From the NCBI GenBank assembly GCA_964415355.1, contig CAYPYS010000003.1, forward strand, positions 68,156-132,155: a stretch of 64,000 nucleotides of DNA, given 5' to 3'. The stretch comes from an uncultured Planctomycetia bacterium. GTDB taxonomy: Bacteria; Omnitrophota; Gorgyraeia; Gorgyraeales; Gorgyraeaceae. A program made the translations under genes and the position numbers. Position 1 is the stretch's first letter; the number at the start of each line of letters is the position of its first letter. The notes under the pieces are model-generated. The model was not told the DNA's origin, did no database searches, and saw nothing but the letters and a program-made list of their open reading frames with translations. Positions 454-64,000 of this stretch are shown piece by piece.

Positions 454-467
454 CTTCCCCTCCGTCC

Positions 468-504
468 TAACTTTACACTTTAACGTTGTTAAAGTGTAAA
501 GTTA
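468..504. repeat. palindromic intergenic element copy 1 (perfect 16-bp arms)
   Basis: taactttacactttaacgttgttaaagtgtaaagtta; supplies trxA stop. Confidence 0.9.
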
Positions 505-822
505 AGCAAGCATTTCCTCTATCTTTTCTGTAATATTATCCTTAGAGGCAACTCCTACGACTCTTGTAAATTCCTTTCCATCCTTGAATAATATAATAGT
601 AGGTATATTCATCACGCCGAACTTTGTAGCAACAGCCATTGCGTCGTCTATATTGAGCTTCGCGACCTTGCATCTTCCTTTGTACTCGTTCGCTAGCTGC
701 TCTATAATAGGGGCTATCATCTTGCATGGCATGCACCACGTCGCCCAGAAATCCACGATTACAGGTTTGTCTGATTGCAAAACCTCGGCTTCGAAATTTT
801 CTTGTCCCAGTTGCAACATCAT
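502..822 (-). CDS. trxA: thioredoxin
   Basis: WCMPCK active-site motif, ~107 aa from MM start; stop codon is the terminal TTA of repeat copy at 468..504. Confidence 0.8.
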   Translation of the reverse strand: MMLQLGQENFEAEVLQSDKPVIVDFWATWCMPCKMIAPIIEQLANEYKGRCKVAKLNIDDAMAVATKFGVMNIPTIILFKDGKEFTRVVGVASKDNITEKIEEMLA

Positions 823-3777: not shown

Positions 3778-3818
3778 CTTAAGTTTACATTTCAACAACG
3801 TTAAAGTGTAAACTTAAG
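3778..3818. repeat. element copy 2 (AAGTTT subfamily)
   Basis: cttaagtttacatttcaacaacgttaaagtgtaaacttaag, between rnfG and rnfD. Confidence 0.9.
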
Positions 3819-4436: not shown

Positions 4437-4443
4437 AATCCCC

Positions 4444-4480
4444 TAACTTTACACTTTAACGTTGTTGAAATGTAAAGTTA
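4444..4480. repeat. element copy 3 (opposite orientation)
   Basis: taactttacactttaacgttgttgaaatgtaaagtta, between rnfC and rnfG. Confidence 0.9.
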
Positions 4481-5785
4481 ACTCTTTGCTTTTCTCTTGG
4501 CTAACTTTATAAGCTGCAATAGCGGTATCTTCGACGGGCATACATAGTCGCACGAGCCGCATTCAATGCAGTCAAGCGGACTATAAGAATTCGCTATGTC
4601 AAATCTATTATTTTGCGCACCGAGGCCGATCATGCATGGCATGAGACCTGCGGGGCACGCTTCAATGCATCGCGAGCATCTTATGCAACTTACCTCACCC
4701 GGAGATTTAAAACTTTCGTCCAAGACAAGGATGCCCGAAGTCCCTTTTACAACCGGCGCATCTAAACTAAATTGCGCAATCCCTGTCATAGGCCCACCCA
4801 TTATAATCTTATAAATATTGCGCTCGGCATCGAATCCGCAAAATTCCAATAAATCTTTTATGGGCGTGCCTATCCTCGCTAAGACATTCTTAGGCTCTTT
4901 TAAAAAACTGCCTGATACCGTAACAACCCTTTCATACAATGGCTTGCCGAAATATACTGCCTCATAAATAGCAAAAACCGTCTGAACATTGCTTACAACG
5001 CATCCTATGTCAAGCGGCAACCCACCAGAAGGTACCTCGCGATTAAAAAGCGTCTTTATAAGCTGCTTTTCACCCCCTTGCGGATACTGTGTCTTTAGCT
5101 TAACTATCCTGACGCCTGACGCCTGAGGCCTGAGGCTGATTAGCGCATTTCTCAGTTTTTCTATAGCATCTATCTTATTGTCTTCTATCCCTATTATTAT
5201 ATCTTTTACGCCCAGCGCACAGGCAACAAGATCAATCCCCAGAAGGATCTCTTTTGGCCGCTCAAGCATCAAGCGATGATCACAGGTAAGAAGAGGCTCG
5301 CATTCTGCACCATTTATAATCAAGGTGTCAATATTTTTGCCACGGGGAAGACTCAGCTTAACGTGCGTGGGAAACGCCGCCCCTCCCAATCCTACGATAC
5401 CCGCATCTTTTACGATATTCACGATCTCTTCTTTCGAAAAAGAAGGCTTATCCGTTCGTGAACCTGAAAATGCCTTGATATCTTTGCCGTCAGATTCTAC
5501 TGTAATAGACTTAAAAGAACCAGCAATGGGATGAACATTATCTTCAATAGCAATCACCTTGCCGGATACGCTAGAATGCAAGTTGCTGGAGATAAAGCTC
5601 TTGCCCCTGGCAATAAGAGAGCCTGTCTTTACGCTGTCCCCAATATTAACAATTGGTTCTGAAGGCAAGCCTGCGTGTTGACTCAAGGCGAGCATGACCT
5701 TTTTGGGTAAAGGTATTCTCTCGATCTTCTTTAGTATCGTAGATTCTTTAAGTTCGGGTGGGTGTATAAAATTCATCTTGGACAT
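4478..5785 (-). CDS. rnfC: Rnf complex subunit C
   Basis: 435 aa, two CxxCxxCxxxCP ferredoxin motifs (CIRCSRCIEACP, CIECGSCDYVCP), NADH-binding fold. Confidence 0.9.
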   Translation of the reverse strand: MSKMNFIHPPELKESTILKKIERIPLPKKVMLALSQHAGLPSEPIVNIGDSVKTGSLIARGKSFISSNLHSSVSGKVIAIEDNVHPIAGSFKSITVESDGKDIKAFSGSRTDKPSFSKEEIVNIVKDAGIVGLGGAAFPTHVKLSLPRGKNIDTLIINGAECEPLLTCDHRLMLERPKEILLGIDLVACALGVKDIIIGIEDNKIDAIEKLRNALISLRPQASGVRIVKLKTQYPQGGEKQLIKTLFNREVPSGGLPLDIGCVVSNVQTVFAIYEAVYFGKPLYERVVTVSGSFLKEPKNVLARIGTPIKDLLEFCGFDAERNIYKIIMGGPMTGIAQFSLDAPVVKGTSGILVLDESFKSPGEVSCIRCSRCIEACPAGLMPCMIGLGAQNNRFDIANSYSPLDCIECGSCDYVCPSKIPLLQLIKLAKRKAKS

Positions 5786-6029: not shown

Positions 6030-6033
6030 TCTC

Positions 6034-6070
6034 TAACTTTACATTTCAACAACGTTAAAATGTAAAGTTA
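6034..6070. repeat. element copy 4
   Basis: taactttacatttcaacaacgttaaaatgtaaagtta; supplies MFS stop. Confidence 0.9.
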
Positions 6071-7315
6071 GGCTTTTGGCGATTTTGACCGAATCAGTTT
6101 CACAAATCCTATCGCAGAAAATACCGTCCCGACTATAACAAGAATCAACTCTTTCCTCACCCATTCAGCAATCAAAGAAACAAATATCATAAATAAAAGA
6201 AAAGCGATATGCATTATTATATCTATTGAGCTAAATACCCTACCTCTCATTTTTTCTTCCATTACCTCATGCAAAAGCGTACTAGAGGAAACGACGATAG
6301 GAGAAGCGAGTAGGCCTATAAGCATGGAAAACGCGGCTGCAACAAAAAAATAAGGCCACAACTTTAGCCCAATAGCAAATAAAACTATAGCCAATCCCGT
6401 AAGGCACAGACCAAAATTTATTGTTTTTCTTTTGCAGAATCTTCCACCGAACCTCCCATATGCCAGCGAGCCAAATAATAAACCTATACCCAAAAACATC
6501 GCCAAAAAGCCAAGATGTTCGGTCGAAGAGTGCAATCTGTCCTGGATAAATACTATTATTATAATATAAATAGATCCGACTCCAGCCATCATCAAGAACA
6601 TGGTATTTGCGATCATTCTTATGTCCTTATGGTTCTTCAGATATAACAACCCTTCCTTTATGTCTCCTAATATTGTCTTTTTTATAATGAACTTTAGCTT
6701 CTCTCTGGCTCTAGAAACCTTAGGTCCAGCTTTAAACTTGAAAACAACAAATGAAACCATTATAGCGGAAATAAAATATGTAACAGAATCCACATAAAAT
6801 CCGCCTTTTGCTCCTAGCTTTGCCACTATTAAGCCTCCGAGACCAAACCCAACAACAGCTGCGATCATTCTGGTAGTGGACGTCAAAGAATTAGCAAGGA
6901 GTAATTTGTCTTTCTGCACAATATCAGGAATTATTGCAAGTTTGGACGGCAGAAAAAATCTTGTAACAGAGAAAATAAGAAACACCATAATATATACGGG
7001 TGCCATGCTCTCTGAACATGATATGACCAACGGCATAAAAAGCACCAATATGCCTCTTAATAGATCGCAAGCTACCATTGTGTATTTTCTATTCCACCTA
7101 TCAACACAAATACCAGCGATCGGGCCTACGATAAAAACAGGAAGTATGGTAAAAGATAAAAGCTTGGCAAGCTCTATGGTAGAACCTGGCATTCGCGCGT
7201 ATATAAGACCTATTAGCGCCATCTGATTAAGCCTATCGCCAAAATTCGATATGATTTGGGAAACCCAAAGGAGTGAAAAATTTTTATCTCTTAAAAGCTC
7301 TCTTAATCTCGCCAC
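6068..7315 (-). CDS. MFS transporter
   Basis: 12-TM MFS pattern; track ORF extends to 7444 through a tRNA-fragment/GC-rich region, probable real start GTG ~7315 (VARLRELLRDKNFSLLW). Confidence 0.55.
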   Translation of the reverse strand: MARLRELLRDKNFSLLWVSQIISNFGDRLNQMALIGLIYARMPGSTIELAKLLSFTILPVFIVGPIAGICVDRWNRKYTMVACDLLRGILVLFMPLVISCSESMAPVYIMVFLIFSVTRFFLPSKLAIIPDIVQKDKLLLANSLTSTTRMIAAVVGFGLGGLIVAKLGAKGGFYVDSVTYFISAIMVSFVVFKFKAGPKVSRAREKLKFIIKKTILGDIKEGLLYLKNHKDIRMIANTMFLMMAGVGSIYIIIIVFIQDRLHSSTEHLGFLAMFLGIGLLFGSLAYGRFGGRFCKRKTINFGLCLTGLAIVLFAIGLKLWPYFFVAAAFSMLIGLLASPIVVSSSTLLHEVMEEKMRGRVFSSIDIIMHIAFLLFMIFVSLIAEWVRKELILVIVGTVFSAIGFVKLIRSKSPKA

Positions 7316-7831: not shown

Positions 7832-7892
7832 TTAAAAATTCTTCCGCACTTATACTTCCTAAATAAAAAGAGGGCACTAAAAATTTAATATC

Positions 7893-7929
7893 TAACTTTA
7901 CACTTCAACGTTGTTGAAATGTAAAGTTA
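7893..7929. repeat. element copy 5
   Basis: taactttacacttcaacgttgttgaaatgtaaagtta. Confidence 0.9.
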
Positions 7930-8526
7930 GGCGGGTTGAGCTTTTTTGGGCAGGAAAAATCTGAATACCTTTTTTACGAATCTGAACATCATCTTCAAAA
8001 ACCATATGGAAAACAGGACAAAAAGGATTACGATTATGCCGGTTATAATAGGGTGATTGACGATCATCCAAAGCGCACCCACCACCATGGCATCTTCTGA
8101 TACGCTGGCAATCGAATTAGTAACCGGCTCCGGTGAAGTATTTATAGCAACGCGGGCGGTGGCCTTTGTCAGGTGAGAGTCCATCGCGACTGTTCCGCTT
8201 AAAAGAGCAGCCGGGATCTGCGCAACCGGGCCTATGTCAGCCATCGCCATATAAGATAATGCAGCGCCGCCTATAGGCCTTATAAAAGTATGAACGGAAT
8301 CCCATACAGAATCAACCAGAGGGATCTTATCAGCAAAAAACTCAACCGCATACATCAATATAGCGACAGCGATAATAAGAGGATTGGAAATAACATCTAA
8401 ATTTCCGGGCAGATTTATAACGCCCATCTTATCCATAATTCCCAATCCCGCGATAGTCAGATAAAGATTCACGCCAGATGCCCAGGAACCACCTAAAAGG
8501 ACTCCTAAATTACTTAACACTTCCAT
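7927..8526 (-). CDS. DUF4126-like membrane protein
   Basis: 199 aa polytopic; pattern resembles DUF4126 family. Confidence 0.4.
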   Translation of the reverse strand: MEVLSNLGVLLGGSWASGVNLYLTIAGLGIMDKMGVINLPGNLDVISNPLIIAVAILMYAVEFFADKIPLVDSVWDSVHTFIRPIGGAALSYMAMADIGPVAQIPAALLSGTVAMDSHLTKATARVAINTSPEPVTNSIASVSEDAMVVGALWMIVNHPIITGIIVILFVLFSIWFLKMMFRFVKKVFRFFLPKKAQPA

Positions 8527-9905: not shown

Positions 9906-9976
9906 GACAGCAACTTGTAATTATTTTATCAAAGCCTCTACTTATGTCAATACAAATAGTTTTATTTTCACTGTCT

Positions 9977-10013
9977 TAACTTTACATTTCAACAACGTTA
10001 AAGTGTAAAGTTA
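9977..10013. repeat. element copy 6; encodes NFTL-stop of ApbE
   Basis: taactttacatttcaacaacgttaaagtgtaaagtta. Confidence 0.9.
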
Positions 10014-10861
10014 GCGTCTGCTTCTATTATTAAAACTTCTGTGTCTTTTAAAGATTCTATGAGTCGCGAACCCTGTTCTTTGCCCATTACAAAGACAGCT
10101 GTAGAAAGGGCATCTGCTTCTTCTGCTGAACTGGCAATGACAGTAACGCTAGCAATGCTTTCGGCGGCCTTGCCGTTAGCAGGGTCTATTATATGAGACC
10201 CTCTTTCATAATAACCTGACGTGGAAATAGCCTTATCTCTTAAATCCAATTTATATATTATTTTTTTCTTATTCTCAGGGCTCTGTATTCCTATCTTCCA
10301 GGATTCTTTGCGCAGTGGATTGCCCAACGCATATATGTTCCCCCCGATATTTATCAATGCATTACTGACTCCCTTTGACAATAAAATTTCTTTTGTCCTG
10401 TCTACTGCATAGCCCTTTGCTATCCCGCCCAAATCTATCTTCATATCTTCTTCTAAAAAACGTACGGATAATCTTTCTTTATCTAAAGAGATTTTTTCAT
10501 ATCTTCCTTTTTTTAAAGGCTCGATCGTTATATCAAAGCTTCCGCTGCTCAGCCTGCTATAATTAATAGCTCGCTCTATAAGTCCGAAAACCTCTGCGTC
10601 TATATTTACAGCCCCACTGCCTGCGAGCCTATTTATCCTTGAAACCTCGCTTTCATTATTAAATTTATCAAAAATTCTTTCTATGCGCTCTATCTCTCTA
10701 AACGCATCCTCAATCGCATCGGATGCATCTCTCTCGTCAGAAGCATAATAAGATATCTCTGCAAAGGTATCCATTGCGATCCTTGTCTCCTTAAACAGTC
10801 GAGGCTGACTGCAAGAACAAAAAAATAGAAAAACAAAAATAAACAAAAATATATTCTTCAT
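9998..10861 (-). CDS. apbE: FAD:protein FMN transferase (ApbE family) lipoprotein
   Basis: DLGGIAKGYAVD, IDPANG motifs; lipobox FFCSC; last 4 codons plus stop encoded by repeat copy 9977..10013. Confidence 0.8.
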   Translation of the reverse strand: MKNIFLFIFVFLFFCSCSQPRLFKETRIAMDTFAEISYYASDERDASDAIEDAFREIERIERIFDKFNNESEVSRINRLAGSGAVNIDAEVFGLIERAINYSRLSSGSFDITIEPLKKGRYEKISLDKERLSVRFLEEDMKIDLGGIAKGYAVDRTKEILLSKGVSNALINIGGNIYALGNPLRKESWKIGIQSPENKKKIIYKLDLRDKAISTSGYYERGSHIIDPANGKAAESIASVTVIASSAEEADALSTAVFVMGKEQGSRLIESLKDTEVLIIEADANFTL

Positions 10862-13042: not shown

Positions 13043-13103
13043 ATACGCTTATTATAATACATGGGGAGGTATTTTTGGAAGTAAATATATTTTTGACCTG
13101 CAT

Positions 13104-13139
13104 AACTTTACACTTTAACGTTGTTGAAATGTAAAGTTA
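13104..13139. repeat. element copy 7, abutting tRNA-Asp 3' end
   Basis: taactttacactttaacgttgttgaaatgtaaagtta. Confidence 0.9.
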
Positions 13140-13216
13140 TGGCGGGGACGACGGGGCTCGAACCCGCGACCTCAAGATCGACAATCTTGCGTTCTATCCA
13201 AACTGAACTACGTCCC
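13140..13216 (-). tRNA. tRNA-Asp (anticodon GTC)
   Basis: GGGGACGTAGTTCAGTTGGATAGAAC..CAAGATTGTCGATCTTG..GGTTCGAGCCCCGTCGTCCCCGCCA. Confidence 0.8.
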
Positions 13217-13243: not shown

Positions 13244-13321
13244 ATGGTGGGCGGTACAGGGCTCGAACCTGTGAAACCTCTTCGGTGTAAACGAAGCGCT
13301 CTACCAACTGAGCTAACCGCC
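13244..13321 (-). tRNA. tRNA-Val (anticodon TAC)
   Basis: GGGCGGTTAGCTCAGTTGGTAGAGCGCTTCGTTTACACCGAAG..GGTTCGAGCCCTGTACCGCCCACCA. Confidence 0.8.
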
Positions 13322-13377
13322 CTGTTAAGCGCCTTAATACTATACAATACCAGCCACTATGTTTCAAGCAATATTTC

Positions 13378-19223: not shown

Positions 19224-19251
19224 CCCCTCTCCTTCTACTCTATAATTTCAC

Positions 19252-20381: not shown

Positions 20382-20409
20382 GATAATATCTCCGTATTTT
20401 ATTACCACC

Positions 20410-20446
20410 TAACTTTACATTTCAACAACGTTAAAGTGTAAAGTTA
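20410..20446. repeat. element copy 8 (ntpE/pyrE junction)
   Basis: consensus copy; supplies pyrE stop. Confidence 0.9.
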
Positions 20447-21010
20447 GCGGCTGCCGGGTTTTGTTATCTCGGCCCCTTTTTTGCACAAAGGGCACTGTTC
20501 TGGGGGGAAAACTGGAAGATCTAATTTTATCAGACTAAATGACTTTACGCCAAAATCTATTTTTTCGCTACTTCTGTCTATAATACTTCCAACACCTATT
20601 ATACTTGCGCCGGTTGCTTTTACAACCTCTAAAACCTCCTTGGTCGAAAGACCGGTCGTTATCACGTCTTCGACCACAAGTACCCTTTCGCCAGGCCTGA
20701 TCTCAAAACCTCTCCTCAAAACCATGGACCTGTCTTTTCTTTCTGTAAAAATAGAGGTGACCCCTAAAGCCCTTGCTGTCTCATAAGAGACGATCACTCC
20801 TCCGAGCGCTGGCGCGACGACGCACGCAGGCTTCTCATCTTTGAAATGACTGGCAAGCTGCGCACATAATTTCTCGGCATATTCCGGATATTGTAGAATC
20901 CTGGCGCATTGCAAATAATCACCGCTGTGCAATCCACTCGATAATCTAAAATGCCCCTTTAGAAGCGCCTTTGTATTTTTTAGAATTCTCAGGATTTCTT
21001 TTTCTTTCAT
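20444..21010 (-). CDS. pyrE: orotate phosphoribosyltransferase
   Basis: LVVEDVITTGLSTKE PRPP-binding motif; stop supplied by repeat copy. Confidence 0.85.
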   Translation of the reverse strand: MKEKEILRILKNTKALLKGHFRLSSGLHSGDYLQCARILQYPEYAEKLCAQLASHFKDEKPACVVAPALGGVIVSYETARALGVTSIFTERKDRSMVLRRGFEIRPGERVLVVEDVITTGLSTKEVLEVVKATGASIIGVGSIIDRSSEKIDFGVKSFSLIKLDLPVFPPEQCPLCKKGAEITKPGSR

Positions 21011-21022
21011 ATCTTCAAAGGC

Positions 21023-21059
21023 TAACTTTACATTTCAACAACGTTAAAGTGTAAAGTTA
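21023..21059. repeat. element copy 9 (pyrE/pyrF junction)
   Basis: consensus copy; supplies pyrF stop. Confidence 0.9.
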
Positions 21060-21752
21060 GAACATGCTTTGTAATGCCTTGACAGGGTCTTTTGCCTTTG
21101 TAATAGGCCGGCCGATTACTATGTAATCCGCTCCAGCATCGATTGCCTGTTTTGGCGTAGCAACTCTTTTCTGGTCCTCTTTTTGGCTTCCTTCAGGCCT
21201 GACTCCGGGTGTAACTATTAAGAAATTCTCCCCAAATGTCTTCCTGAGCTTTGCGGTTTCTTTAGGAGACGCCACAACGCCATCCAGCCCTGAATCTTTT
21301 GCCAGCCTGGCAAGGTCAAATACCTGTTCCTCCGGCACTTTGTTGATCCCAACCTCACGCAGAGATTCTTTATCCATGCTTGTAAGAACAGTAACTCCTA
21401 AAATCCTCGGCCTGCCCTGACCCAATCTTTCGCTCTCTTCTTCGGCCCCCTCGAGCGCAGCCTTCATCATGGCCCTTCCGCCAGAAGCATGCACATTAAA
21501 CATGGTCGCGCCTAACCGCGCAGCAACCCTTGCAGAACTTTTGACAGTATTTGGGATATCATGGAACTTTAAATCCAAAAATATATCTTTGTCATGTTTT
21601 TTAATTATATCTATTGCCTTTGCGCCGCAGGAATAAAATAATTCCATGCCTACCTTAAAAATATTTACATGCGGACTTAATATGTCGAGCAAACGATCGA
21701 CTTCCTTGATCGTATTGGTATCAAGCGCTACTATGACTTTGTCTTTGTCCAT
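21057..21752 (-). CDS. pyrF: orotidine 5'-phosphate decarboxylase
   Basis: MDKDKVIVALDTNT..FKVGMELF, 231 aa. Confidence 0.85.
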   Translation of the reverse strand: MDKDKVIVALDTNTIKEVDRLLDILSPHVNIFKVGMELFYSCGAKAIDIIKKHDKDIFLDLKFHDIPNTVKSSARVAARLGATMFNVHASGGRAMMKAALEGAEEESERLGQGRPRILGVTVLTSMDKESLREVGINKVPEEQVFDLARLAKDSGLDGVVASPKETAKLRKTFGENFLIVTPGVRPEGSQKEDQKRVATPKQAIDAGADYIVIGRPITKAKDPVKALQSMF

Positions 21753-22588: not shown

Positions 22589-22602
22589 TCTACATCTCCC
22601 GC

Positions 22603-22639
22603 TAACTTTACATTTCAACAACGTTAAAGTGTAAAGTTA
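22603..22639. repeat. element copy 10 (pyrK/pyrD junction, inside operon)
   Basis: consensus copy; supplies pyrK stop. Confidence 0.9.
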
Positions 22640-23424
22640 GCCCCATATTATTTCATTGGCGTCGAATATGGGTCCGTCTTTGCATACAAACTTACAGGCA
22701 ATACCTTTGCCTTTTACTCTCACAGCGCAACCCAGGCACGCGCCAATGCCACACGCCATTTCTTCTTCCAACGAAGCATAGCATTTTATCTTATTCTTAG
22801 CACAAATATCAGCAATGCTTTTTAACATTGGTTGTGGCCCACATGTATAAATCGTTGACCTGTTGGCCTGTAAAATTTTTTGAAATAAGCCTGAAACAAA
22901 ACCTTTATATCCTTTGCTTCCGTCATCAGTAGCAATATGGACTTTAGCGCCAAGATTTTTAAAATCCTTCTCGCACAATAGCGTTTTCTTTGTCTTTGCA
23001 CCGATCAAAACAGTCATCTTTATTTTCTTCTTGGCTAAAACCTCTGCAAGAAAAACCAGCGGCGCAACGCCTATGCCGCCAGTGATTAGAATTGCCGTTT
23101 GCCGCTTGTCGCCCTTCGCCCGAGGCAATGTAAAACCATTGCCCAAAGGGCCTAAGACTTTAAGAAAATCTCCTTTTTTCTTTCTAGCTAATAACTCTGT
23201 TCCTTTGCCTATTACTTCATATAAAATTTCGATCGCATTTTGAGTTTTAAGCCTATGAATACTAAACGGTCTCCTCAAAAACGGCTCTAGCGTATCACTG
23301 CACCTAACCTGCACAAACTGGCCTGCTTTTGCGCTCTTCGCAATACTAGGTGCCTCAAGGCCCATCTTAAAATAGCCTGACCCTATATTCTCGTTGGATA
23401 AAACCTTTGCTTTTATGTCTTTCA
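22637..23424 (-). CDS. pyrK: dihydroorotate dehydrogenase electron-transfer subunit
   Basis: FAD/NAD-binding fold, C-terminal CGIGACLGC Fe-S motif; stop codon from repeat copy. Confidence 0.85.
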
Positions 23425-23438: not shown

Positions 23439-23477
23439 CTTAAGTATACACTTTAACATTGTTAAAATGTATACTTA
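23439..23477. repeat. element copy 11 (GTATAC subfamily)
   Basis: cttaagtatacactttaacattgttaaaatgtatacttaa. Confidence 0.85.
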
Positions 23478-23495
23478 AAATTAAAATGTTTCTTA

Positions 23496-27520: not shown

Positions 27521-27632
27521 AGCAAAAAAAATACCTTCCCGCTTATTTATAGCAAGAAGGTATAAGTTTCTTCGATTCTCTATGCACTTTCATTTTTACC
27601 ACCTTATCAACCTCTCAGGGCTGATTTAAAGG
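27521..27632 (-). promoter_or_regulatory. PyrR-type transcription attenuator: terminator hairpin plus U8 next to RBS, and upstream PyrR-box-like loop
   Basis: Transcript ACCUUCUUGC-loop-GCGGGAAGGU then UAUUUUUUUU at 27521..27560; AGCCCUGAGAGGUU at ~27608..27624 matches ARUCCNGNGAGGYU 13/14. Confidence 0.45.
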
Positions 27633-27676
27633 TTATCTTTCCTATTATTATACAGAAAATACCTGATTTGTCAATC

Positions 27677-27715
27677 CTTAAGTATACTTTCAACAATGTT
27701 AAAAGTATACTTAAG
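27677..27715. repeat. element copy 12 (GTATAC subfamily, shortened arms)
   Basis: cttaagtatactttcaacaatgttaaaagtatacttaag. Confidence 0.8.
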
Positions 27716-29620: not shown

Positions 29621-29643
29621 AATTACTATTATATATTATATCC

Positions 29644-29680
29644 TAACTTTACATTTCAACAACGTTAAAGTGTAAAGTTA
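29644..29680. repeat. element copy 13
   Basis: consensus copy; supplies otsB stop. Confidence 0.9.
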
Positions 29681-30481
29681 GGCGGGCGGAAGCGTGGTCA
29701 GCTTTTTTAAAAACTTCCCCACCTCTCTCGTATTGCTCAGGAAATAATCTGAACCGATGCCCTTCTTTGGTTTACCGACAAACACGGACACGCCTTTTTT
29801 TCTGATCGCGCGAAACGCATCTATGTCCGTAACATCATCCCCTATATATAAAGGAAAGGTCTTTTTCTTTTTAAGGAGCCAGTTAACAGCCCTTCCTTTA
29901 TTCCAATCTAGATTAGGCCTTACCTCCCAAACTTTTTTGCCTGAAGTAACCTTTATCTTTTTAGATATTATATATGGTCTAGTTATTTTATCAAGCTTCT
30001 TTTTTATTAAAGTCTTATCTTTTGATCTTGCAAGTCTATAATGCAGACTTAACGTAGCGCCTTTATCCTCTATAAATACTCCTTTAATATTTTTCATATC
30101 CTTACGTAACTGCGCTCCGATTTTTTTTACAATAGGTCTTGCAATACCCGCAGCAGATGGCCTTGAAAACCTGATACCCTTCCCTTCTATCTCGAGGCCA
30201 TGATTACCTGCATAGATAATGCCTTTTATGCCGACCATATTTTTTACATTCTTCAACGAACGACCGCTTATGATCGCTATCATAAATCTTGGATCTTTCT
30301 TTAATTTACTGATTGATATTTTTACTGAGCGCGGAAACTTCGCATATTCAGGTCTTTTGACGATGGGCGTAAGAGTGCCATCATAATCAAGGAATAAAAA
30401 AACATGCGGAGAGTTTTGTATCTTAGAGGAAAGCCTGTTCCAGTCGTTGAAAAGATATCGCATTCTATTCTTTAAACTCAA
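29678..30481 (-). CDS. otsB: trehalose-6-phosphate phosphatase
   Basis: LFLDYDGTLTPIV HAD-IIB motif. Confidence 0.75.
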   Translation of the reverse strand: MSLKNRMRYLFNDWNRLSSKIQNSPHVFLFLDYDGTLTPIVKRPEYAKFPRSVKISISKLKKDPRFMIAIISGRSLKNVKNMVGIKGIIYAGNHGLEIEGKGIRFSRPSAAGIARPIVKKIGAQLRKDMKNIKGVFIEDKGATLSLHYRLARSKDKTLIKKKLDKITRPYIISKKIKVTSGKKVWEVRPNLDWNKGRAVNWLLKKKKTFPLYIGDDVTDIDAFRAIRKKGVSVFVGKPKKGIGSDYFLSNTREVGKFLKKLTTLPPA

Positions 30482-31943: not shown

Positions 31944-31958
31944 AACAACTTCCTCTCT

Positions 31959-31995
31959 TAACTTTACATTTCAACAACGTTAAAATGTAAAGTTA
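31959..31995. repeat. element copy 14
   Basis: taactttacatttcaacaacgttaaaatgtaaagtta. Confidence 0.9.
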
Positions 31996-32005
31996 AGATC
32001 CGCGA

Positions 32006-33414: not shown

Positions 33415-33444
33415 TTTGTCAAGGAAATTCCCAGCACAAAGACC

Positions 33445-33481
33445 TAAGTTTACATTTCAACAACGTTAAAGTGTAAAGTTA
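33445..33481. repeat. element copy 15 (hybrid AAGTTT / AAAGTT arms)
   Basis: taagtttacatttcaacaacgttaaagtgtaaagtta; supplies rsmI stop. Confidence 0.9.
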
Positions 33482-34156
33482 GGAAGAAAAAGGGGAGATA
33501 ATAAGGCAAAATTCGCCTCTGGGCGGGGTTTTAGTGAAATGCTGCATTGCCAGGGAAACTTTGAAACGTAGGACCTCTTCATATATCTTCGTAATTTCCC
33601 TGGTAATAGCCAGCTCTCTGTCTCCTAAGATATCAAATATATCAGCCAGGAGCTTCAGTAGCCTATGGGGCGATTCATATAATATAATAGTTTTTCTCTC
33701 GCTGCTTAAGAGCCCCAGTTGTTTGCGTCTCTTGGCCTTTTTATGCGATAAAAACCCCTGAAATACAAAGCTATCAGTAGGCATGCCTGATAAGACCAGG
33801 GCTGATACAAATGCGCAAGGTCCGGGAGCAACTGTGACTGAAATACCATTCTCTATGGCGCGCCTGATGATATTGAAACCCGGATCGCTTATGCCAGGCG
33901 TGCCACTGTCAGAAACAAGGGCGACTTCCTTGTCCTCTTTTAGAAGCTGCACCAGATATTCTCCTTTTTTGATCTTATTATGCTCGAAATAGCTTGTGGT
34001 CGGGGTTGAAATTTGATAATGTGAAAGCAGTTTTTTTGTATGGCGCGTGTCTTCGCAAGCAATGAGATCCACTGCCTTCAGTATCTCAATAGCCCTAAAC
34101 GTTATATCTTTCAAATTGCCTATAGGGGTGGATACTATATAAAGTTTACCTGGCAT
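33479..34156 (-). CDS. rsmI: 16S rRNA (cytidine1402-2'-O)-methyltransferase
   Basis: YIVSTPIGNLKDITFRAIEILKAVDLIACEDTRHT. Confidence 0.85.
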   Translation of the reverse strand: MPGKLYIVSTPIGNLKDITFRAIEILKAVDLIACEDTRHTKKLLSHYQISTPTTSYFEHNKIKKGEYLVQLLKEDKEVALVSDSGTPGISDPGFNIIRRAIENGISVTVAPGPCAFVSALVLSGMPTDSFVFQGFLSHKKAKRRKQLGLLSSERKTIILYESPHRLLKLLADIFDILGDRELAITREITKIYEEVLRFKVSLAMQHFTKTPPRGEFCLIISPFSS

Positions 34157-34186: not shown

Positions 34187-34226
34187 TTAAGTATACACTT
34201 TAACATTGTTGAAATGTATACTTAAG
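34187..34226. repeat. element copy 16 (GTATAC subfamily)
   Basis: cttaagtatacactttaacattgttgaaatgtatacttaag. Confidence 0.85.
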
Positions 34227-36090: not shown

Positions 36091-36129
36091 TTAAGTTTAC
36101 ATTTCAACAACGTTAAAATGTAAACTTAG
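36091..36129. repeat. element copy 17 (AAGTTT subfamily)
   Basis: ttaagtttacatttcaacaacgttaaaatgtaaacttag. Confidence 0.9.
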
Positions 36130-36764: not shown

Positions 36765-36812
36765 GGTGCTATATATTATAACACCTGCCGCTCTTCCCTT
36801 CAACCTCGGCCT

Positions 36813-36866
36813 AACTTTACATTTCAACGTTGGGGAAGCCTGTGCCACGAAGTAGTATGTAAAGTT
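36813..36866. repeat. element copy 18 split by ~26-bp insertion in the loop
   Basis: taactttacatttcaacgtt-ggggaagcctgtgccacgaagtagta-tgtaaagtt, in divergent promoter region. Confidence 0.7.
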
Positions 36867-36883
36867 GAAGCGTTTAGCTTATT

Positions 36884-47046: not shown

Positions 47047-47094
47047 AGTTAATTAGTATAGTCGGCTTATATCGTAGAATCAAGTACATTATAC

Positions 47095-47131
47095 TAACTT
47101 TACATTTCAACAACGTTAAAGTGTAAAGTTA
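47095..47131. repeat. element copy 23
   Basis: consensus copy. Confidence 0.9.
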
Positions 47132-48394
47132 GCGCCAGGTGAGCCAGAGAAAGATGTAAGCTGATGATACTGCGGCGAGGGTAAACGGAAGGCCTATCTT
47201 TAAAAAATCCAAGAAACCTACTTTGTAGCCACGCTCTCTGAGCATTCCCATTGAGACAATATTGGCTGAAGCGCCTATAGGAGTTATATTCCCCCCTAGA
47301 GTAGCGCCTATCAATAGGCCAAATAAGAATAACTCTGGCGCAGCGCCCATGCTGGATGCAAGGATCTTTGCGACAGGTATCATGGTTATGACATAGGGTA
47401 TGTTGTCTATAAATGCAGAGAATAAAACCGAGGCCCACACGATCAAGGTAAACGTAAGGAAGATGTTCCCACCTGTTACATCTGATATAAAATTTGCCAG
47501 GTCCTCTATTATGCCCACGTGGCTAAGCGTACCTATGAGGATAAATACACCTATCAAGAACAGAAATGTCCTCCAGTCTATATTTTTTATAAATGAAAAC
47601 TCCTCTTTACTGGAGATCTTATGCCAGAGAACCCCTATGCCGCCAAAAAATAGGCAGATCAGTGCGATCGAATAATAGGGCTTTTGCGTGATAAAACTGG
47701 AAACTCCTAGACTAGCTATCATAAGAGACATAAGAATAGTTGGCATCCATGTTTTAACCTTTACCTGCTCGATCCTTTCTGCGCGCTGCCTGAAACGCCT
47801 AAAAATAAGATACAAAACTACGAATGAAGCCACTGCGCCTATTTCCACTGCAAATGCAATGCCAGGTCTTCCTTTCATCCAGAAAAAGTCCATGAAATTC
47901 ATTCTATGGAGCATGGCAAGAATGATGCTGGGCGAATCTCCTATCATTGTCGCAGATCCCTGAAGATTAGAGCTCACGGCTATGCTTATCAAAAACGGAA
48001 TCGGATTGGCTTTTAATTTTTTGGCGACCTCGAATGCGATCGGCGCCACTATAATGACCGTTGCGACATTTTCTGTAAAACTGGATATGAAGCTTGAGAG
48101 AAGCGCGATGAACAAAATCGCCATTCCTACATTTTTGGATTTAGAGACGAGCCTTGTTGCAAGAAATCCAGGCACATTGGAATATATAAATAAGCCTGAG
48201 AGAATCATTGAGCCTAAAAATACTCCCAAGACATTAAAGTTTATGCTCGACAGTGCTTGTTTTAGATCAATTGCCTGGGAAATTAAAAGTATGGCAACGC
48301 CGCTGAATAGCGGGATAAGTGGATTGACTTTGCGGTTGAATAATATAACAGAAGCGTAAGTCAGCAGAAATATAGTAACTACAAAAATCTTCAT
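47129..48394 (-). CDS. ArsB/NhaD-superfamily anion permease
   Basis: 421 aa polytopic with internal symmetry. Confidence 0.45.
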   Translation of the reverse strand: MKIFVVTIFLLTYASVILFNRKVNPLIPLFSGVAILLISQAIDLKQALSSINFNVLGVFLGSMILSGLFIYSNVPGFLATRLVSKSKNVGMAILFIALLSSFISSFTENVATVIIVAPIAFEVAKKLKANPIPFLISIAVSSNLQGSATMIGDSPSIILAMLHRMNFMDFFWMKGRPGIAFAVEIGAVASFVVLYLIFRRFRQRAERIEQVKVKTWMPTILMSLMIASLGVSSFITQKPYYSIALICLFFGGIGVLWHKISSKEEFSFIKNIDWRTFLFLIGVFILIGTLSHVGIIEDLANFISDVTGGNIFLTFTLIVWASVLFSAFIDNIPYVITMIPVAKILASSMGAAPELFLFGLLIGATLGGNITPIGASANIVSMGMLRERGYKVGFLDFLKIGLPFTLAAVSSAYIFLWLTWR

Positions 48395-49036: not shown

Positions 49037-49082
49037 GGTTACAAAAGGTACAAAAACTCTAAAAATCTGTACCTTCTGTACC
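49037..49082. promoter_or_regulatory. cluster of four GGTACA(AAAA) half-sites (two direct, two inverted) upstream of rex
   Basis: ggttacaaaa, ggtacaaaaa, then tctgtacc twice. Confidence 0.3.
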
Positions 49083-49119
49083 TAACTTTACATTTCAACA
49101 ACGTTAAAATGTAAAGTTA
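49083..49119. repeat. element copy 24
   Basis: taactttacatttcaacaacgttaaaatgtaaagtta. Confidence 0.9.
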
Positions 49120-49126
49120 GGGATAA

Positions 49127-50350: not shown

Positions 50351-50363
50351 TTTAAGAGTTTGC

Positions 50364-50400
50364 TAACTTTACACTTTAACGTTGTTGAAATGTAAAGTTA
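50364..50400. repeat. element copy 25
   Basis: consensus copy; supplies cysK stop. Confidence 0.9.
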
Positions 50401-51324
50401 GGATTTGAATAAGTCTGTGCTTATGTATCTTTCTCCTGTGTCGGGTAAGATTACTACTATGAGCTTGCCTTTGTTCTCTGGACGTTTGGCTATTTCCACC
50501 GCTGCATACACTGCTGCGCCACTGGATATGCCTGCAAGTATCCCTTCTTCTTTAGCTAGAAGTTTTGAAGTCGCAAATGCGTCTTCGTTTTTAACTTTTA
50601 GAATCTCATCTATTAATCCAGTATCCAAGACATCTGGGACAAAACCAGCGCCTATGCCCTGGATCTTATGAGACCCGGAACTACCTCCGGAAAGAACAGG
50701 TGAATCAAATGGCTCAACCGCTACCACTTTAAATTCTTTTTTTCTCTTCTTTATAGCCTGGGCCACGCCTGTCAAAGTACCACCTGTCCCAACGCCACTA
50801 ATAAGAATATCGACCTTTCCGTCTGTGTCTTTCCAGATTTCTTCAGCTGTTGCTTCTCTGTGGATCTTTGGATTCGCAGGATTTTTAAACTGTTGTGGCA
50901 TAAAAGCACCTTTGGTCTTTTTGGTCAACTCTTCTGCCTTTTCAACAGCACCCTTCATGCCTTTGTCGCCGGGCGTAAGAACGATCTCAGCCCCGAATAA
51001 GTCCAGAACCTTTCGCCTCTCGACACTCATTGTCTCAGGCATTGTAATAATAAGCTTATAACCCTTTGCTGCTGCGATAAACGCAAGACCAATGCCAGTA
51101 TTGCCACTAGTAGGCTCTATGATCGTGCCGCCTGGCTTTAAAATACCTTTATCCTCCGCATCCTTGATCATTGAAAAACCTATCCTATCCTTCACGCTGC
51201 CGCAAGGATTAAAGGATTCGAGCTTCCCGACAATTTCCGCTTCTATATCTTTGGCTATAGCGCCCAATCTTACGAGCGGGGTATTTCCAATCGTCTCTGT
51301 TATATCTTTATAAATCTTAGACAT
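50398..51324 (-). CDS. cysK: cysteine synthase (O-acetylserine sulfhydrylase)
   Basis: PLP fold, SVKDR, GTGGT motifs. Confidence 0.85.
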
Positions 51325-51868: not shown

Positions 51869-51908
51869 TTAAGTATACACTTTAACATTGTTGAAATGTA
51901 AACTTAAG
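51869..51908. repeat. element copy 26 (chimeric arms GTATAC / AAACTT)
   Basis: ttaagtatacactttaacattgttgaaatgtaaacttaag. Confidence 0.8.
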
Positions 51909-56048: not shown

Positions 56049-56092
56049 TGTAAGTATACCATACCCCCCTACCCTATGTCAAGAAGAAACCT

Positions 56093-56130
56093 AACTTTAC
56101 ATTTCAACAATGTTAAAGTGTATACTTAAG
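56093..56130. repeat. element copy 27 (chimeric arms AACTTT / GTATAC)
   Basis: taactttacatttcaacaatgttaaagtgtatacttaag. Confidence 0.8.
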
Positions 56131-57287: not shown

Positions 57288-57328
57288 CTTAAGTATACAC
57301 TTTAACATTGTTGAAATGTATACTTAAG
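57288..57328. repeat. element copy 28 (GTATAC subfamily)
   Basis: cttaagtatacactttaacattgttgaaatgtatacttaag. Confidence 0.85.
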
Positions 57329-60075: not shown

Positions 60076-60098
60076 GTTCTCCCTCTCTCTTCTTCCCG

Positions 60099-60135
60099 TA
60101 ACTTTACACTTTAACGTTGTTGAAATGTAAAGTTA
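60099..60135. repeat. element copy 29; encodes cobA C-terminal 9 aa
   Basis: taactttacactttaacgttgttgaaatgtaaagtta. Confidence 0.9.
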
Positions 60136-63966: not shown

Positions 63967-63974
63967 CATTTTTT

Positions 63975-64000
63975 TAACTTTACATTTCAACAACGTTAAA
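63975..64000. repeat. element copy 30 (truncated by window end)
   Basis: taactttacatttcaacaacgttaaa. Confidence 0.8.

What the first reader, a model, noticed from the sequence alone, without database searches (positions are those of the whole stretch)
23439..23477. Compensatory arm substitutions define three element subfamilies, plus chimeric copies
Outer-arm variants are always changed symmetrically. AACTTT...AAAGTT is the majority form. AAGTTT...AAACTT occurs in copies at 3778, 36091 and 39155. AAGTAT...ATACTT occurs in copies at 23439, 27677, 34187, 40864 and 57288. Palindromy is preserved by paired substitutions (C:G to G:C; TT:AA to AT:AT). This indicates selection on secondary structure (cruciform or single-strand hairpin) rather than on a one-sided protein-binding motif. 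Copies at 51869 and 56093 have arms from different subfamilies, suggesting recombination or gene conversion between copies. Inner-arm differences (acatTt/aaaGtg) are tolerated as G-U wobbles in RNA.
Basis: seen in the sequence. Interest (0 to 1): 0.6.

Follow-up and report, generated by a model that had tools for sequence, protein, structure and literature searches.

The report
REP-like hairpin repeats in Omnitrophota
The palindromes are a very abundant family of short hairpin-forming repeats sitting right behind genes in an uncultured Omnitrophota bacterium; they keep their stem through paired base changes. In related genomes they flank a REP-type tyrosine transposase gene, so this is a new variant of a known kind of bacterial mobile DNA.

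Summary
The repeat is real. There are 30 copies of a 37-39 bp near-palindrome, one 58-bp variant and one cut copy in 64 kb, all between genes.

The paired arm changes are real but not universal. 24 of 28 window copies have matched outer arms. Four are mixed: 33444, 39155, 51869 and 56091.

Across 122 distinct copies from related genomes and metagenomes, 15 of 18 stem pairs show changes on both sides, and at least 12 matched arm types exist. A stem-pairing constraint is therefore well supported.

The element behaves as a REP (repetitive extragenic palindrome):
- It fills 27 of about 31 intergenic gaps of 35 bp or more.
- It supplies the upstream gene's TAA stop codon in 17 of 30 copies.
- In a sister genome (about 84% identical) and seven other lineages, the same or a cognate palindrome flanks a Y1/HUH transposase. 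That protein's predicted fold best matches E. coli RAYT bound to a REP hairpin.

Orthologous junctions in the two genomes keep the element and its orientation but carry different matched arm types. This implies concerted replacement, not point mutation.

Whether the hairpin matters as single-stranded DNA, as RNA or as both is unresolved. It is a new variant of a known kind: no GTAG tag, a 17-19 bp stem, and a transposase with an added helix-turn-helix (HTH) domain.

The parts
23440..23478 (-). The copy named in the finding. It is C-type (AAGTAT/ATACTT arms, AAT centre on the - strand) and lies between a TIGR00375-family gene and the dihydroorotate dehydrogenase electron-transfer subunit gene.
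   Evidence: As sense-strand RNA it folds into a fully paired stem, -19 kcal/mol, z -8.2.
467..505 (-). A-type copy with a perfect inner stem. The upstream gene's stop codon lies inside it.
3779..3817 (+). B-type copy (AAGTTT/AAACTT).
   Evidence: The orthologous copy in L019 is also B-type.
4443..4481 (-). A-type copy with the stop codon inside. It is absent at the orthologous site of the sister genome, where another repeat sits.
   Evidence: It is present in L133.
6033..6071 (+). A-type copy. The orthologous copy in the sister genome is C-type.
7892..7930 (-). A-type copy with the stop codon inside.
9976..10014 (+). A-type copy, followed by a sigma-70-like promoter.
13102..13140 (-). A-type copy that starts 2 nt after the 3' end of a tRNA gene.
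19224..19251 (.). Probable decayed relic: a degenerate left arm plus TTAAG. A full copy sits at this junction in L128, and a 58-bp variant sits there in L030.
   Evidence: Assigned by inference from the alignments.
20409..20447 (+). A-type copy upstream of the V-type ATPase operon, with the stop codon inside. The ortholog is B-type.
21022..21060 (+). A-type copy. The ortholog is D-type (AAGTTC/GAACTT).
22602..22640 (+). A-type copy. The ortholog is B-type.
27678..27714 (+). C-type copy of 37 bp with one base pair deleted symmetrically. It lies between a gene end and the promoter and PyrR leader of the pyr operon. The ortholog is a full-length D-type.
29643..29681 (+). A-type copy. The ortholog is B-type.
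31958..31996 (+). A-type copy. The ortholog is D-type.
33444..33482 (+). It is fixed in 7 independent assemblies of the same population.
34187..34225 (-). C-type copy downstream of glmS. It is absent at the orthologous site of the sister genome.
36091..36129 (+). B-type copy. The ortholog is B-type.
36811..36868 (+). 58-bp variant with A-type outer arms and the insert GGGGAAGCCTGTGCCACGAAGTAGTA replacing the inner right arm. It is the only copy in a divergent intergenic region. The ortholog is an ordinary 39-bp D-type copy.
39113..39151 (-). Variant copy with GTTAAC arms (short, 37-bp-type form). It stands in tandem with the next copy between convergent genes and is absent in L117.
39155..39193 (+). 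Mixed copy (left arm B, right arm A, AAT centre).
40864..40902 (+). C-type copy with the stop codon inside. Together with an adjacent GC-rich hairpin it is absent in L117, where the two genes abut.
43258..43296 (+). A-type copy with the stop codon inside.
44732..44770 (-). A-type copy with the stop codon inside.
47094..47132 (+). A-type copy with the stop codon inside.
49082..49120 (+). A-type copy. The orthologous copy in L021 is identical.
50363..50401 (-). A-type copy. The ortholog is C-type.
51869..51907 (-). Mixed copy (B and C arms), followed by the promoter TTGACA-17-TATAAT.
56091..56129 (+). Mixed copy (A left arm; AAT centre and C right arm), followed by the promoter TTGACA-17-TATACT. 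The ortholog is B-type.
57289..57327 (-). C-type copy with the stop codon inside. The ortholog is B-type.
60098..60136 (-). A-type copy.
63974..64000 (+). A-type copy cut by the end of the window.

Best explanation
The 39-bp palindromes are a family of repetitive extragenic palindromes (REPs) in an uncultured Omnitrophota bacterium.

**Proposed mechanism.** They are the substrates, and probably the products, of a chromosomal REP-associated tyrosine transposase (RAYT-like Y1/HUH enzyme with an added C-terminal HTH). Enzymes of this kind bind and cut folded single-stranded DNA hairpins, so a copy stays recognisable only while its two arms pair. That requirement explains several observations:
- Arm changes survive as complementary pairs.
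- Distinct matched arm types (A, B, C and others) coexist as lineages.
- A whole base pair can be lost symmetrically.

Mixed copies arise by recombination or gene conversion between copies, with a breakpoint inside the element. At fixed junctions, copies are replaced in a concerted way by the type dominant in each genome.

The copies sit directly behind genes and often supply the TAA stop codon. Every copy is therefore also transcribed as a stable hairpin at the 3' end of a cistron. A secondary RNA-level role, such as a 3' end barrier or terminator, is possible.

**Shown:** the family, its positions, the covariation, the flanking of the transposase gene in relatives, and the subfamily switching at orthologous sites.

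**Inferred:**
- that this enzyme acts on these hairpins;
- that the constraint acts on single-stranded DNA;
- the conversion mechanism;
- that the window's own genome carries the enzyme.
For: **Anatomy and abundance.**
- There are 30 copies in 64 kb, all intergenic.
- 27 of about 31 gaps of 35 bp or more are occupied.
- Arms never occur singly.

**Covariation.**
- 15 of 18 pairs show double-sided changes, 92.6% of cells pair, and 0 of 500 shuffles reach this.
- At least 12 matched outer-arm types exist; about 91% of 255 copies are matched.

**Transposase link.**
- L041:1560-2351 in the sister genome encodes a 263-aa Y1_Tnp protein between thrC and the next gene.
- It has a B-type element 21 nt upstream. 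An inverted B-type element overlaps its last codons.
- Pfam PF01797 scores 39.4 bits against a gathering score of 23. The best NCBIfam hit is REP_Tyr_transpos, E 3e-17. Both scores are for the 51%-identical homologue L111:96-1076; L041's protein (P0001) carries the precomputed PF01797 tag.
- The HUH histidines and the Y-IHxNPV tyrosine are invariant in 34 homologues.
- The AlphaFold model (pLDDT 85.6) best matches 4er8_A, E. coli RAYT bound to a REP hairpin (E 5.8e-7, TM 0.74).

**Same arrangement in other lineages.**
- L162, with C-type elements on both sides.
- L163/L164, with a C-type element upstream. These come from the same sample series as the window population and are 82% identical to L041.
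- L111/L139.
- L166, with three copies upstream and one inverted downstream.
- L165 and L167, each flanked by its own different palindrome.
- Elusimicrobia L168 and WOR-3 L169, with the same ACTTTACAYTT outer arm.

**Concerted turnover.**
- In the ungapped orthologous site comparisons, the outer-arm positions show 11 double compensated changes against 3 single ones.
- Orientation is kept in 14 of 15 sites.
- Gains and losses occur at 4 or 5 sites.

**Agreement with published REP properties.** REPs lie downstream of ORFs, their termini provide stop codons, and subfamilies carry complementary stem residues (PMC3733652). RAYTs bind, cleave and rejoin REP hairpins (PMC3479197 title/abstract; PMC6006769 background).
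Against: - No RAYT gene lies in the window itself. The link rests on relatives.
- Because elements sit at nearly every junction in these genomes, flanking of any one gene could be coincidence. However, flanking also holds in genomes where only the two gene-adjacent copies are seen (L168, L169).
- The NCBIfam REP_Tyr_transpos score (62.8) is below its cutoff (80), and a sequence profile did not hit 4ER8.
- The canonical unpaired GTAG/CGTC tag of REPs is absent.
- Y1 proteins with a C-terminal HTH (subclass 2.1, 'TIRYT') were reported not to be REP-associated (PMC6006769).
- Positions are largely conserved between genomes about 84% identical, and copies are invariant within the population. Current mobility is therefore low.
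- Stem positions 12/28 and 15/25 do not covary.
Confidence: 0.7

Rival explanations
1. The stem is maintained mainly for an RNA function. Each copy would be a transcribed hairpin at the 3' end of a cistron that terminates transcription, blocks 3'-5' exonucleases or is an RNase III site. The transposase link would be secondary or historical.
For: - Copies lie 0-24 nt after stop codons, and after a tRNA gene.
- They are followed either by the next RBS and start codon or by a sigma-70-like promoter.
- Convergent genes carry one copy each (39113 and 39155).
- Either orientation gives an equally good hairpin, -14 to -19 kcal/mol.
- Occupancy is conserved between species.
- The sense strand is slightly more stable (-17.0 vs -16.25 kcal/mol, p 0.015) and has more G.U than C.A.
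- REPs elsewhere are reported to act this way (PMC3733652 abstract).
Against: - The sense-strand bias disappears in the metagenome copies. It is also the bias expected from the strong GC skew alone.
- No U-tract follows the stem, and the genome has ordinary GC-rich/U-tract terminators.
- One copy sits in a divergent promoter region (36811).
- An RNA role does not explain why many dispersed hairpins share one sequence.
- It does not explain why that sequence flanks a Y1 transposase in eight lineages.
- It does not explain why arm types switch in concert.
Confidence: 0.25
2. The element is a minimal MITE. It would consist of two terminal inverted repeats of a DDE-type insertion sequence joined back to back, inserted at TA or TTAA with target-site duplication. 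The arms would match because both are bound by the same transposase.
For: - Many copies are bounded by TTAA...TTAA or yTAA...TTAr.
- Presence/absence differences exist between relatives.
- The 58-bp variant and nested insertions resemble MITE families.
Against: - No clean empty site with a single TA/TTAA was found.
- The A-type ends CTAA...TTAG are inverted, not direct.
- No element with these arms around a DDE transposase was seen in 0.8 Mb of related DNA. The only gene bracketed by them is a Y1 enzyme.
- At least 12 coexisting matched arm types are hard to fit to sequence-specific TIR binding.
Confidence: 0.07
3. Palindromy is kept without selection by arm-to-arm copying: mismatch repair or fold-back synthesis in a transient hairpin or cruciform. 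A change in one arm would be mechanically copied to the other.
For: - Symmetric one-base-pair deletions occur (27678, 39113).
- Double transversions recur at the same pair.
Against: - The asymmetries at 12/28, 15/25 and the centre are stably kept in most copies. They are even kept between orthologous copies, so arms are not being homogenised against each other.
- A mixed copy is fixed across 7 assemblies of the population.
Confidence: 0.08
4. The palindromes are operator-like binding sites for a dimeric DNA-binding or nucleoid protein, or they are DNA-uptake sequences arranged in inverted pairs.
For: - They have two-fold symmetry and high density.
- The inner 23 nt are well conserved (90.6% between orthologs).
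Against: - A dimer reading base identity would not accept 12 or more different arm types while still requiring the two arms to match each other.
- Arms never occur singly or inside genes, unlike uptake sequences.
- Copies lie behind genes rather than at promoters.
Confidence: 0.03

Closest known systems
REP elements with their RAYT / TnpA_REP transposase (E. coli, Pseudomonas, Stenotrophomonas; PDB 4ER8)
   Same: - It is a short extragenic imperfect palindrome at high copy number.
- It lies downstream of genes and between unidirectional or convergent genes.
- Its termini supply stop codons.
- Subfamilies carry complementary stem changes.
- The Y1/HUH transposase gene is bracketed by the repeat, usually in inverted orientation.
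- The transposase gene lies in a conserved chromosomal context (thrC next to it in L041, L162, L163 and L166).
   Different: - It has no unpaired GTAG or CGTC tag.
- The stem is 17-19 bp and nearly perfect, against 5-13 bp in described families (PMC3733652).
- Copies are singletons rather than REPIN/BIME doublets.
- The enzyme is about 260-300 aa with a C-terminal HTH and scores below the NCBIfam RAYT cutoff.
- The hosts are Omnitrophota, with relatives in Elusimicrobia and WOR-3.
- The density, about 1 per 2.1 kb, is at or above the densest cases known to me (own knowledge).
TIRYT / TIRtrons = Y1 subclass 2.1 (Di Nocera 2013, PMC3733652; Quentin 2018, PMC6006769)
   Same: - The protein is a Y1 transposase homologous to TnpA_REP with a C-terminal HTH-like extension.
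- The gene is flanked by inverted repeats.
   Different: - Those proteins were reported to lack REP-like hairpins nearby, and their TIRs share a GGGGWSAS motif.
- Here each flank is itself a hairpin-forming palindrome.
- In some Omnitrophota that palindrome has multiplied to dozens of copies per 64 kb.
- Whether the protein belongs to subclass 2.1 was not tested.
IS200/IS605 insertion sequences (IS608, ISDra2)
   Same: - The enzyme has a Y1/HUH fold; Foldseek matches 2-29, apart from 2fyx_A (rank 31), are these enzymes.
- Subterminal hairpins are recognised as single-stranded DNA.
   Different: - Here the gene appears fixed in one chromosomal place while the solo hairpins are what is multiplied.
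- No tnpB is present.
- The hairpins are nearly symmetric, so left and right ends are not clearly distinguished.
Integron attC sites
   Same: - They are imperfect palindromes directly behind genes.
- They are recognised as folded single strands.
- Structure is conserved more than sequence.
   Different: - The genes here are housekeeping genes, not cassettes.
- Both orientations occur.
- No integrase is nearby.
- The inner sequence is strongly conserved.

Membership tests
REP / RAYT system | A short (about 20-40 nt) imperfect palindrome able to form a stem-loop. | tested here: met
   The elements are 37-39 bp. They fold at -14 to -19 kcal/mol, with z-scores of -4.4 to -8.2 for the three matched copies folded and -2.4 for the mixed copy 56091 (-10.6 kcal/mol).
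REP / RAYT system | High copy number, confined to extragenic space, mostly downstream of genes. | tested here: met
   There are 30 copies in 64 kb, all intergenic. They lie 0-24 nt after stop codons. 27 of about 31 gaps of 35 bp or more are occupied.
REP / RAYT system | A Y1/HUH tyrosine transposase gene flanked by copies of the same repeat (REPtron arrangement). | tested here: met
   Met in the sister genome (L041) and in L162, L163/L164, L111/L139, L165, L166, L167, L168 and L169. Not testable for the window's own genome, because the gene is not in the window.
REP / RAYT system | The transposase carries the HUH motif and the catalytic tyrosine, and has the RAYT fold. | tested here: met
   H76, H78, Y135 and N139 are invariant. 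Pfam Y1_Tnp scores above its gathering score. The best structural match is 4er8_A.
REP / RAYT system | The transposase reaches the curated RAYT family threshold (NCBIfam NF047646). | tested here: not met
   It scores 62.8 bits against a cutoff of 80, although this is the best-scoring family, E 3e-17. A sequence profile against the PDB did not hit 4ER8.
REP / RAYT system | A conserved unpaired GTAG (or CGTC) tetranucleotide at one foot of the hairpin. | tested here: not met
   The ends are yTAA...TTAr and pair with each other. Beyond them only C at -1 and G at +1 are enriched.
REP / RAYT system | Arrangement as inverted doublets (REPIN/BIME). | tested here: not met
   All copies are singletons except the tandem pair 39113/39155. 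This is not an absolute requirement, since singleton-dominated families are described (PMC3733652).
REP / RAYT system | The transposase is single-copy and vertically inherited. | tested here: inconclusive
   The neighbourhood is conserved: thrC lies upstream in L041, L162, L163 and L166. The copy number per genome could not be counted.
REP / RAYT system | The enzyme binds, cleaves and rejoins the single-stranded hairpin. | not testable with these tools
   This needs biochemistry.
TIR-type MITE (DDE transposase) | Target-site duplication, and a parent IS with the same termini. | tested here: not met
   No clean duplication was seen at four presence/absence sites. No DDE element with these arms occurs in the 0.8 Mb examined.
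Intrinsic (Rho-independent) terminator | A GC-rich stem followed by a U-tract. | tested here: not met
   The stem is AT-rich and long. The downstream 25 nt are purine-rich and T is not enriched. A canonical terminator is present elsewhere in the window.
Rfam RNA families | A match to a curated covariance model. | tested here: not met
   Only four tRNAs and the PyrR leader reach gathering scores in the window.

The most novel reading that the evidence does not exclude
In this Omnitrophota clade a Y1-HTH transposase of the class thought not to be REP-associated has spread its flanking hairpin to almost every gene junction. The copies are no longer simply inserted and lost. Instead they are exchanged in place, by enzyme-mediated cut-and-rejoin or by short-tract conversion between copies, so the whole population drifts in concert from one matched arm type to another. 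Meanwhile the copies serve the host as universal gene-end punctuation, supplying the stop codon and a 3' hairpin.
Probability: 0.25. Interest if true: 0.7.

Novelty: new variant of a known kind. Interest (0 to 1): 0.5.

Why it matters
- REP/RAYT systems have been studied almost only in Proteobacteria. Here is a very dense, structurally clean example in an uncultured, small-celled phylum, and it extends the association to a transposase subclass (Y1 plus HTH) reported as REP-free.
- Two syntenic genomes, together with many metagenome copies, let orthologous copies be compared one by one. That comparison shows directly that copies at fixed positions change arm type in concert while staying self-complementary. 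This bears on the old question of how REP families stay homogeneous: gene conversion or transposition.
- Practically, these repeats supply the stop codons of many genes and will confuse gene callers, terminator predictors and assemblers for this phylum.

Tried and rejected
- **Phage or plasmid origin.** Rejected: the genes are housekeeping genes, and the GlmS relatives are all Omnitrophota.
- **Known RNA family.** No Rfam hit.
- **Longer parent element.** The half-elements joined to GGGGAAGCCTGTGCCAC are a 58-bp variant. Those joined to AATAGGGACAG are nested insertions of a second palindromic repeat. Neither is the end of a larger transposon.
- **G.U versus C.A strand test for an RNA role.** There is a modest excess on the sense strand, but positions 1-4 are constrained by the stop codon and position 19 cannot pair. 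The metagenome copies show no bias, and GC skew predicts the same direction. Only 6 informative copies lie on the C-rich strand (2 vs 4). The test is inconclusive.
- **Target-site duplication.** All four or five presence/absence sites are untidy: extra deletions, a co-inserted GC hairpin, or a different repeat in the 'empty' site.
- **Sequence search of the PDB with the transposase or its profile.** It found no RAYT. The fold search was needed.
- **Literature search for palindromic repeats in Omnitrophota.** It found nothing relevant.
- **Origin of the RAYT lead.** It was only a lead and was then verified with Pfam, NCBIfam and the fold search.
Full report
**What is at the coordinates.** It is a 39-bp palindrome with one non-complementary position. 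It lies between two co-directional genes on the minus strand: a TIGR00375-family gene and the dihydroorotate dehydrogenase electron-transfer subunit gene, next to pyrC. The window is a piece of a cellular chromosome. It carries the pyr genes, a V-type ATPase operon, glmS, otsA and four tRNAs. About 42% is G+C, and nearly all genes lie on the G-rich minus strand. The window's GlmS is identical to a protein seen on contigs of up to 144 kb, and all its close relatives are named Candidatus Omnitrophota.

**Census in the window.** A symmetry scan and an nhmmer profile built from the copies agree. They find 30 copies of 37-39 bp, one 58-bp variant (36811-36868) and one copy cut by the window end. 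Shuffled sequence gives none.

Oriented by the asymmetric centre, the consensus is yTAACTTTACATTTCAAC-AAC-GTTAAAGTGTAAAGTTAr. The outer-arm types are:
- A (AACTTT/AAAGTT): 17 copies.
- B (AAGTTT/AAACTT): 3779 and 36091.
- C (AAGTAT/ATACTT): 23440, 27678, 34187, 40864 and 57289.
- A GTTAAC variant at 39113.
- Four mixed copies: 33444 (B/A), 39155 (B/A), 51869 (B/C) and 56091 (A/C).

Copy 39155 is mixed, not B. Copy 33444 was missed. 'Always symmetric' becomes 24 of 28.

C-type arms always come with an AAT centre. Copy 56091 carries the AAT centre plus a C right arm next to an A left arm. That is three linked characters on one side, which points to recombination rather than point mutation.

Copies 27678 and 39113 have lost one base pair symmetrically.

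**Is the stem under constraint?** I collected copies from elsewhere with two pattern scans.
- The genome scan found the element in four MAGs (metagenome-assembled genomes). One of them (CAYULJ01, labelled Planctomycetia by its submitter) has very many copies.
- The metagenome scan used only the inner core as its pattern, so that the outer arms were unbiased. It gave 109 further loci.

On 122 distinct full-length copies with a hairpin of 18 pairs, the results were:
- 92.6% of cells pair.
- 15 of 18 pairs show changes on both sides.
- The covariation score is 0.258, against 0.099 in shuffles (0 of 500 reach it).
- Sliding the partner by 1-3 columns drops pairing to 21-44%.

At least 12 matched outer-arm types occur (CTTT, GTTT, GTAT, GTTC, CTTC, GTTA, CTTG, GTTG, GCTT, GCTA, TTTC, CTAC). 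Matched arms make up 24/28, 103/109 and 105/118 copies in the window, the sister genome and the metagenomes. Rarer copies even have compensated inner-arm changes, such as CTCTGAC/GTCAGAG and AAATCAAC/GTTGATTT.

Two positions, 12/28 and 15/25, are exceptions. They vary as independent transitions, and C.A is the commonest state at 15/25 (68 of 122).

It is not met: about 9% of copies are mixed.

**Where the copies sit.**
- Every window copy is intergenic.
- In 17 of 30 copies, the stop codon of the upstream gene is the TAA at positions 2-4 of the element. Over all loci the figure is 70 of 162. The rest lie 3-32 nt behind a stop codon.
- One copy starts 2 nt after a tRNA gene.
- Two convergent genes have one copy each (39113 and 39155).
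- 27 of about 31 intergenic gaps of 35 bp or more hold a copy. Junctions with overlapping genes, such as those inside the V-ATPase operon, hold none.
- Downstream follows either the next ribosome-binding site and start codon within 7-35 nt, or a sigma-70-like promoter. An example is TTGACA-17-TATAAT after 51869; similar promoters follow 56091, 27678 and 9976.
- No T-run follows the stem. A canonical GC-rich/U-tract terminator exists elsewhere, at about 10870-10905.
- Both orientations occur, 62:38 relative to the gene.
- Single arms are never found alone: 56 of 57 arm matches lie inside elements.
- No Rfam family matches the element.

**Orthologous copies.** Six loci of the CAYULJ01 genome are syntenic with the window at 79-88% identity. 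Six short metagenome contigs add a third and a fourth relative.
- 15 of 17 window junctions that could be compared carry the element in both genomes.
- 14 of those 15 have the same orientation.
- The arm type usually differs: A/A against B/B (20409, 22602, 29643), against C/C (6033, 50363) or against D/D = AAGTTC/GAACTT (21022, 31958).
- The 58-bp variant at 36811 is matched by an ordinary 39-bp copy.

Counted per stem pair in the 12 ungapped comparisons, outer positions 5, 7 and 8 show 11 double compensated changes, 3 single ones and 1 double change that is not compensated. Inner positions 12 and 15 show 14 single transitions and 1 double change.

The same double transversion (C:G to G:C) recurs at 7 or more of 15 sites in genomes only about 16% diverged. 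Independent mutation cannot produce that. Copies must be replaced or converted as units, with orientation preserved.

The elements are not hyper-conserved. The inner 23 nt are 90.6% identical and the outer 16 nt are 79.7% identical, against about 84% overall.

Gains and losses also occur:
- 4443 and 34187 are missing in the sister genome, where another repeat sits.
- 40864 plus an adjacent GC hairpin is missing in L117, where the two genes abut and the upstream gene uses a different stop codon.
- Two junctions are filled only in the sister genome.
- Window 19224-19251 looks like a decayed relic of a copy that is intact in L128.

Within the window's own population, seven further assemblies at 99.9-100% identity carry identical copies, including the mixed copy 33444. 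One uncompensated point mutation is the only difference.

**The transposase link.** The hits led to an ORF in L111/L139. It matches Pfam Y1_Tnp (39.4 bits, gathering score 23). Its best NCBIfam family is 'REP-associated tyrosine transposase' (62.8 bits, below the cutoff of 80), and it has a C-terminal HTH.

Its 51%-identical homologue in the sister genome is L041:1560-2351. This gene lies between thrC and the next gene. A B-type element ends 21 nt upstream of its start codon. An inverted B-type element overlaps its last five codons and stop codon.

The family has 1186 members at E <= 1e-10; most of those that carry an organism name are from Omnitrophota. The HUH histidines and the Y-IHxNPV tyrosine are invariant in 34 of them. 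An AlphaFold model (pLDDT 85.6) best matches 4er8_A, the E. coli RAYT bound to a REP hairpin (E 5.8e-7, TM 0.74 over the target). The IS200/IS608/ISDra2 transposases follow.

The bracketing holds in every lineage I looked at:
- L162 (75% identical protein): C-type elements on both sides.
- L163/L164 (78%): a C-type element with window-like CTAA/TTAG ends and AAC centre upstream. These come from the same sample series as the window population and are 82% identical in DNA to L041, so they are probably the window organism's own locus.
- L111/L139: copies before and after the gene.
- L166: three upstream copies and one inverted downstream copy of an asymmetric relative of the element.
- L165 and L167: a different palindrome of their own on both sides. 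In L165 that palindrome recurs behind other genes.
- Elusimicrobia (L168) and WOR-3 (L169) MAGs: palindromes with the same ACTTTACAYTT outer arm on both sides of the gene. No further copies are seen in 10-20 kb.

**Interpretation.** These are the defining features of a REP/RAYT system.
- RAYTs are chromosomal Y1/HUH enzymes flanked by the repeat they are thought to disperse. They act on folded single-stranded hairpins (PMC3116915, PMC3479197, PMC6006769).
- Published surveys already describe REP families lying downstream of ORFs, termini that supply stop codons, and subfamilies with alternative complementary stem residues (PMC3733652).

A copy remains a substrate, and perhaps a useful RNA hairpin, only while its arms pair. 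The arm types are lineages within the repeat population. The mixed copies are recombinants.

Four things are unusual:
- There is no GTAG/CGTC tag.
- The stem is long and nearly perfect.
- The enzyme has an HTH extension. Y1 proteins with such extensions (subclass 2.1, 'TIRYT') were reported to lack REP-like sequences (PMC6006769).
- Arm types turn over in concert at fixed junctions, and junctions are close to saturated.

**What stays open.**
- I could not decide whether the pairing constraint acts on single-stranded DNA, on RNA or on both.
- The sense strand carries more G.U than C.A (58 vs 34 copies, p 0.016 for positions 5-19) and folds slightly better (p 0.015). The effect is absent in the metagenome copies. 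It is also what the strong GC skew would produce, and only six informative copies lie on the C-rich strand.
- The mechanism of in-place replacement (ectopic conversion or enzyme-mediated exchange) is inferred, not shown.
- The RAYT gene of the window organism itself is not in the window.

Noticed in passing
window 27524-27636 (-): A PyrR-binding leader RNA (Rfam RF00515, 57.5 bits) lies in front of the pyr operon. It is preceded by the promoter TTGACA-17-TATAAT, which starts a few bases after element 27678-27714.
   Followed up: partly
window 7474-7546, 9833-9905, 13143-13217, 13248-13322 (-); about 7335-7360: Four tRNA genes. About 110 bp downstream of the tRNA at 7474-7546 lies a partial duplicate of its 3' part (TGGAGCCGATGAGAGGATTCG on the + strand). 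In the sister genome an element sits right next to that duplicate.
   Followed up: no
window about 10870-10905 (-): A canonical intrinsic terminator (CCCGCATC...GGTGCGGG followed by a T-run). The organism therefore also uses ordinary terminators.
   Followed up: partly
window 12082-12142 and 12650-12712: Two nearly identical 60-bp intergenic regions, each with a promoter-like TTGAAA...TATAAT, lie in front of the small genes 11560-12081 and 12143-12649, whose first codons are also alike (a third small gene, 12713-13042, follows). These are the only gaps of this size without an element, apart from 10861-10925.
   Followed up: no
window 40828-40852; also L010, L013, L165:9095: A second small repeat: the GC-rich hairpin GTCATTCCCGCG(N4)CGGGAAT. 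In the window it was co-inserted with element 40864 relative to L117.
   Followed up: partly
L006:1954-2024 and 6839-6904; L013:315-383; L034:6099-6169; L038:4868: The sister genome has an inverted-repeat family of about 80 bp (AAAAATAGGGACAGACACCTATTTTT ... AAAAATAGGTGTCTGTCCCTATTTTT). It is twice nested into a 39-bp element, replacing one arm.
   Followed up: partly
L019 about 2480-2560 and L010 about 3900-3990 (orthologous to window 4443 and 34187): A CGTATATCGTATTTCG-rich repeat occupies the junctions where the window has elements 4443 and 34187.
   Followed up: no
window 36811-36868; L004:2641, L011:157, L017:469, L023:1997, L027:1249 and 7422, L030:2856, L045:4821, L052:4434: A 58-bp element variant in which GGGGAAGCCTGTGCCACGAAGTGGTA replaces the inner right arm. 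Its outer arms covary too, for example AAGTTCGCA/TGCGAACTT in L027. Its fold is not better than shuffled sequence (z -0.5 to -1.2).
   Followed up: partly
window 36884-39145 (+): The only long plus-strand gene, 753 aa, is a fused membrane/spermidine-synthase-like protein (NCBIfam MFS_SpdSyn, polyamine aminopropyltransferase).
   Followed up: no
proteins P0170 and P0179: Some Omnitrophota GlmS homologues are about 1050 aa long. They carry the additional Pfam domains PF14528 and PF14890, which I recall (not checked) to be intein/homing-endonuclease domains.
   Followed up: no
L111:1132-1566; L166:10929-11369: In two lineages an XRE-type HTH_3 gene directly follows the RAYT-like gene. It lies inside the pair of inverted elements, so it may be a conserved partner.
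   Followed up: no
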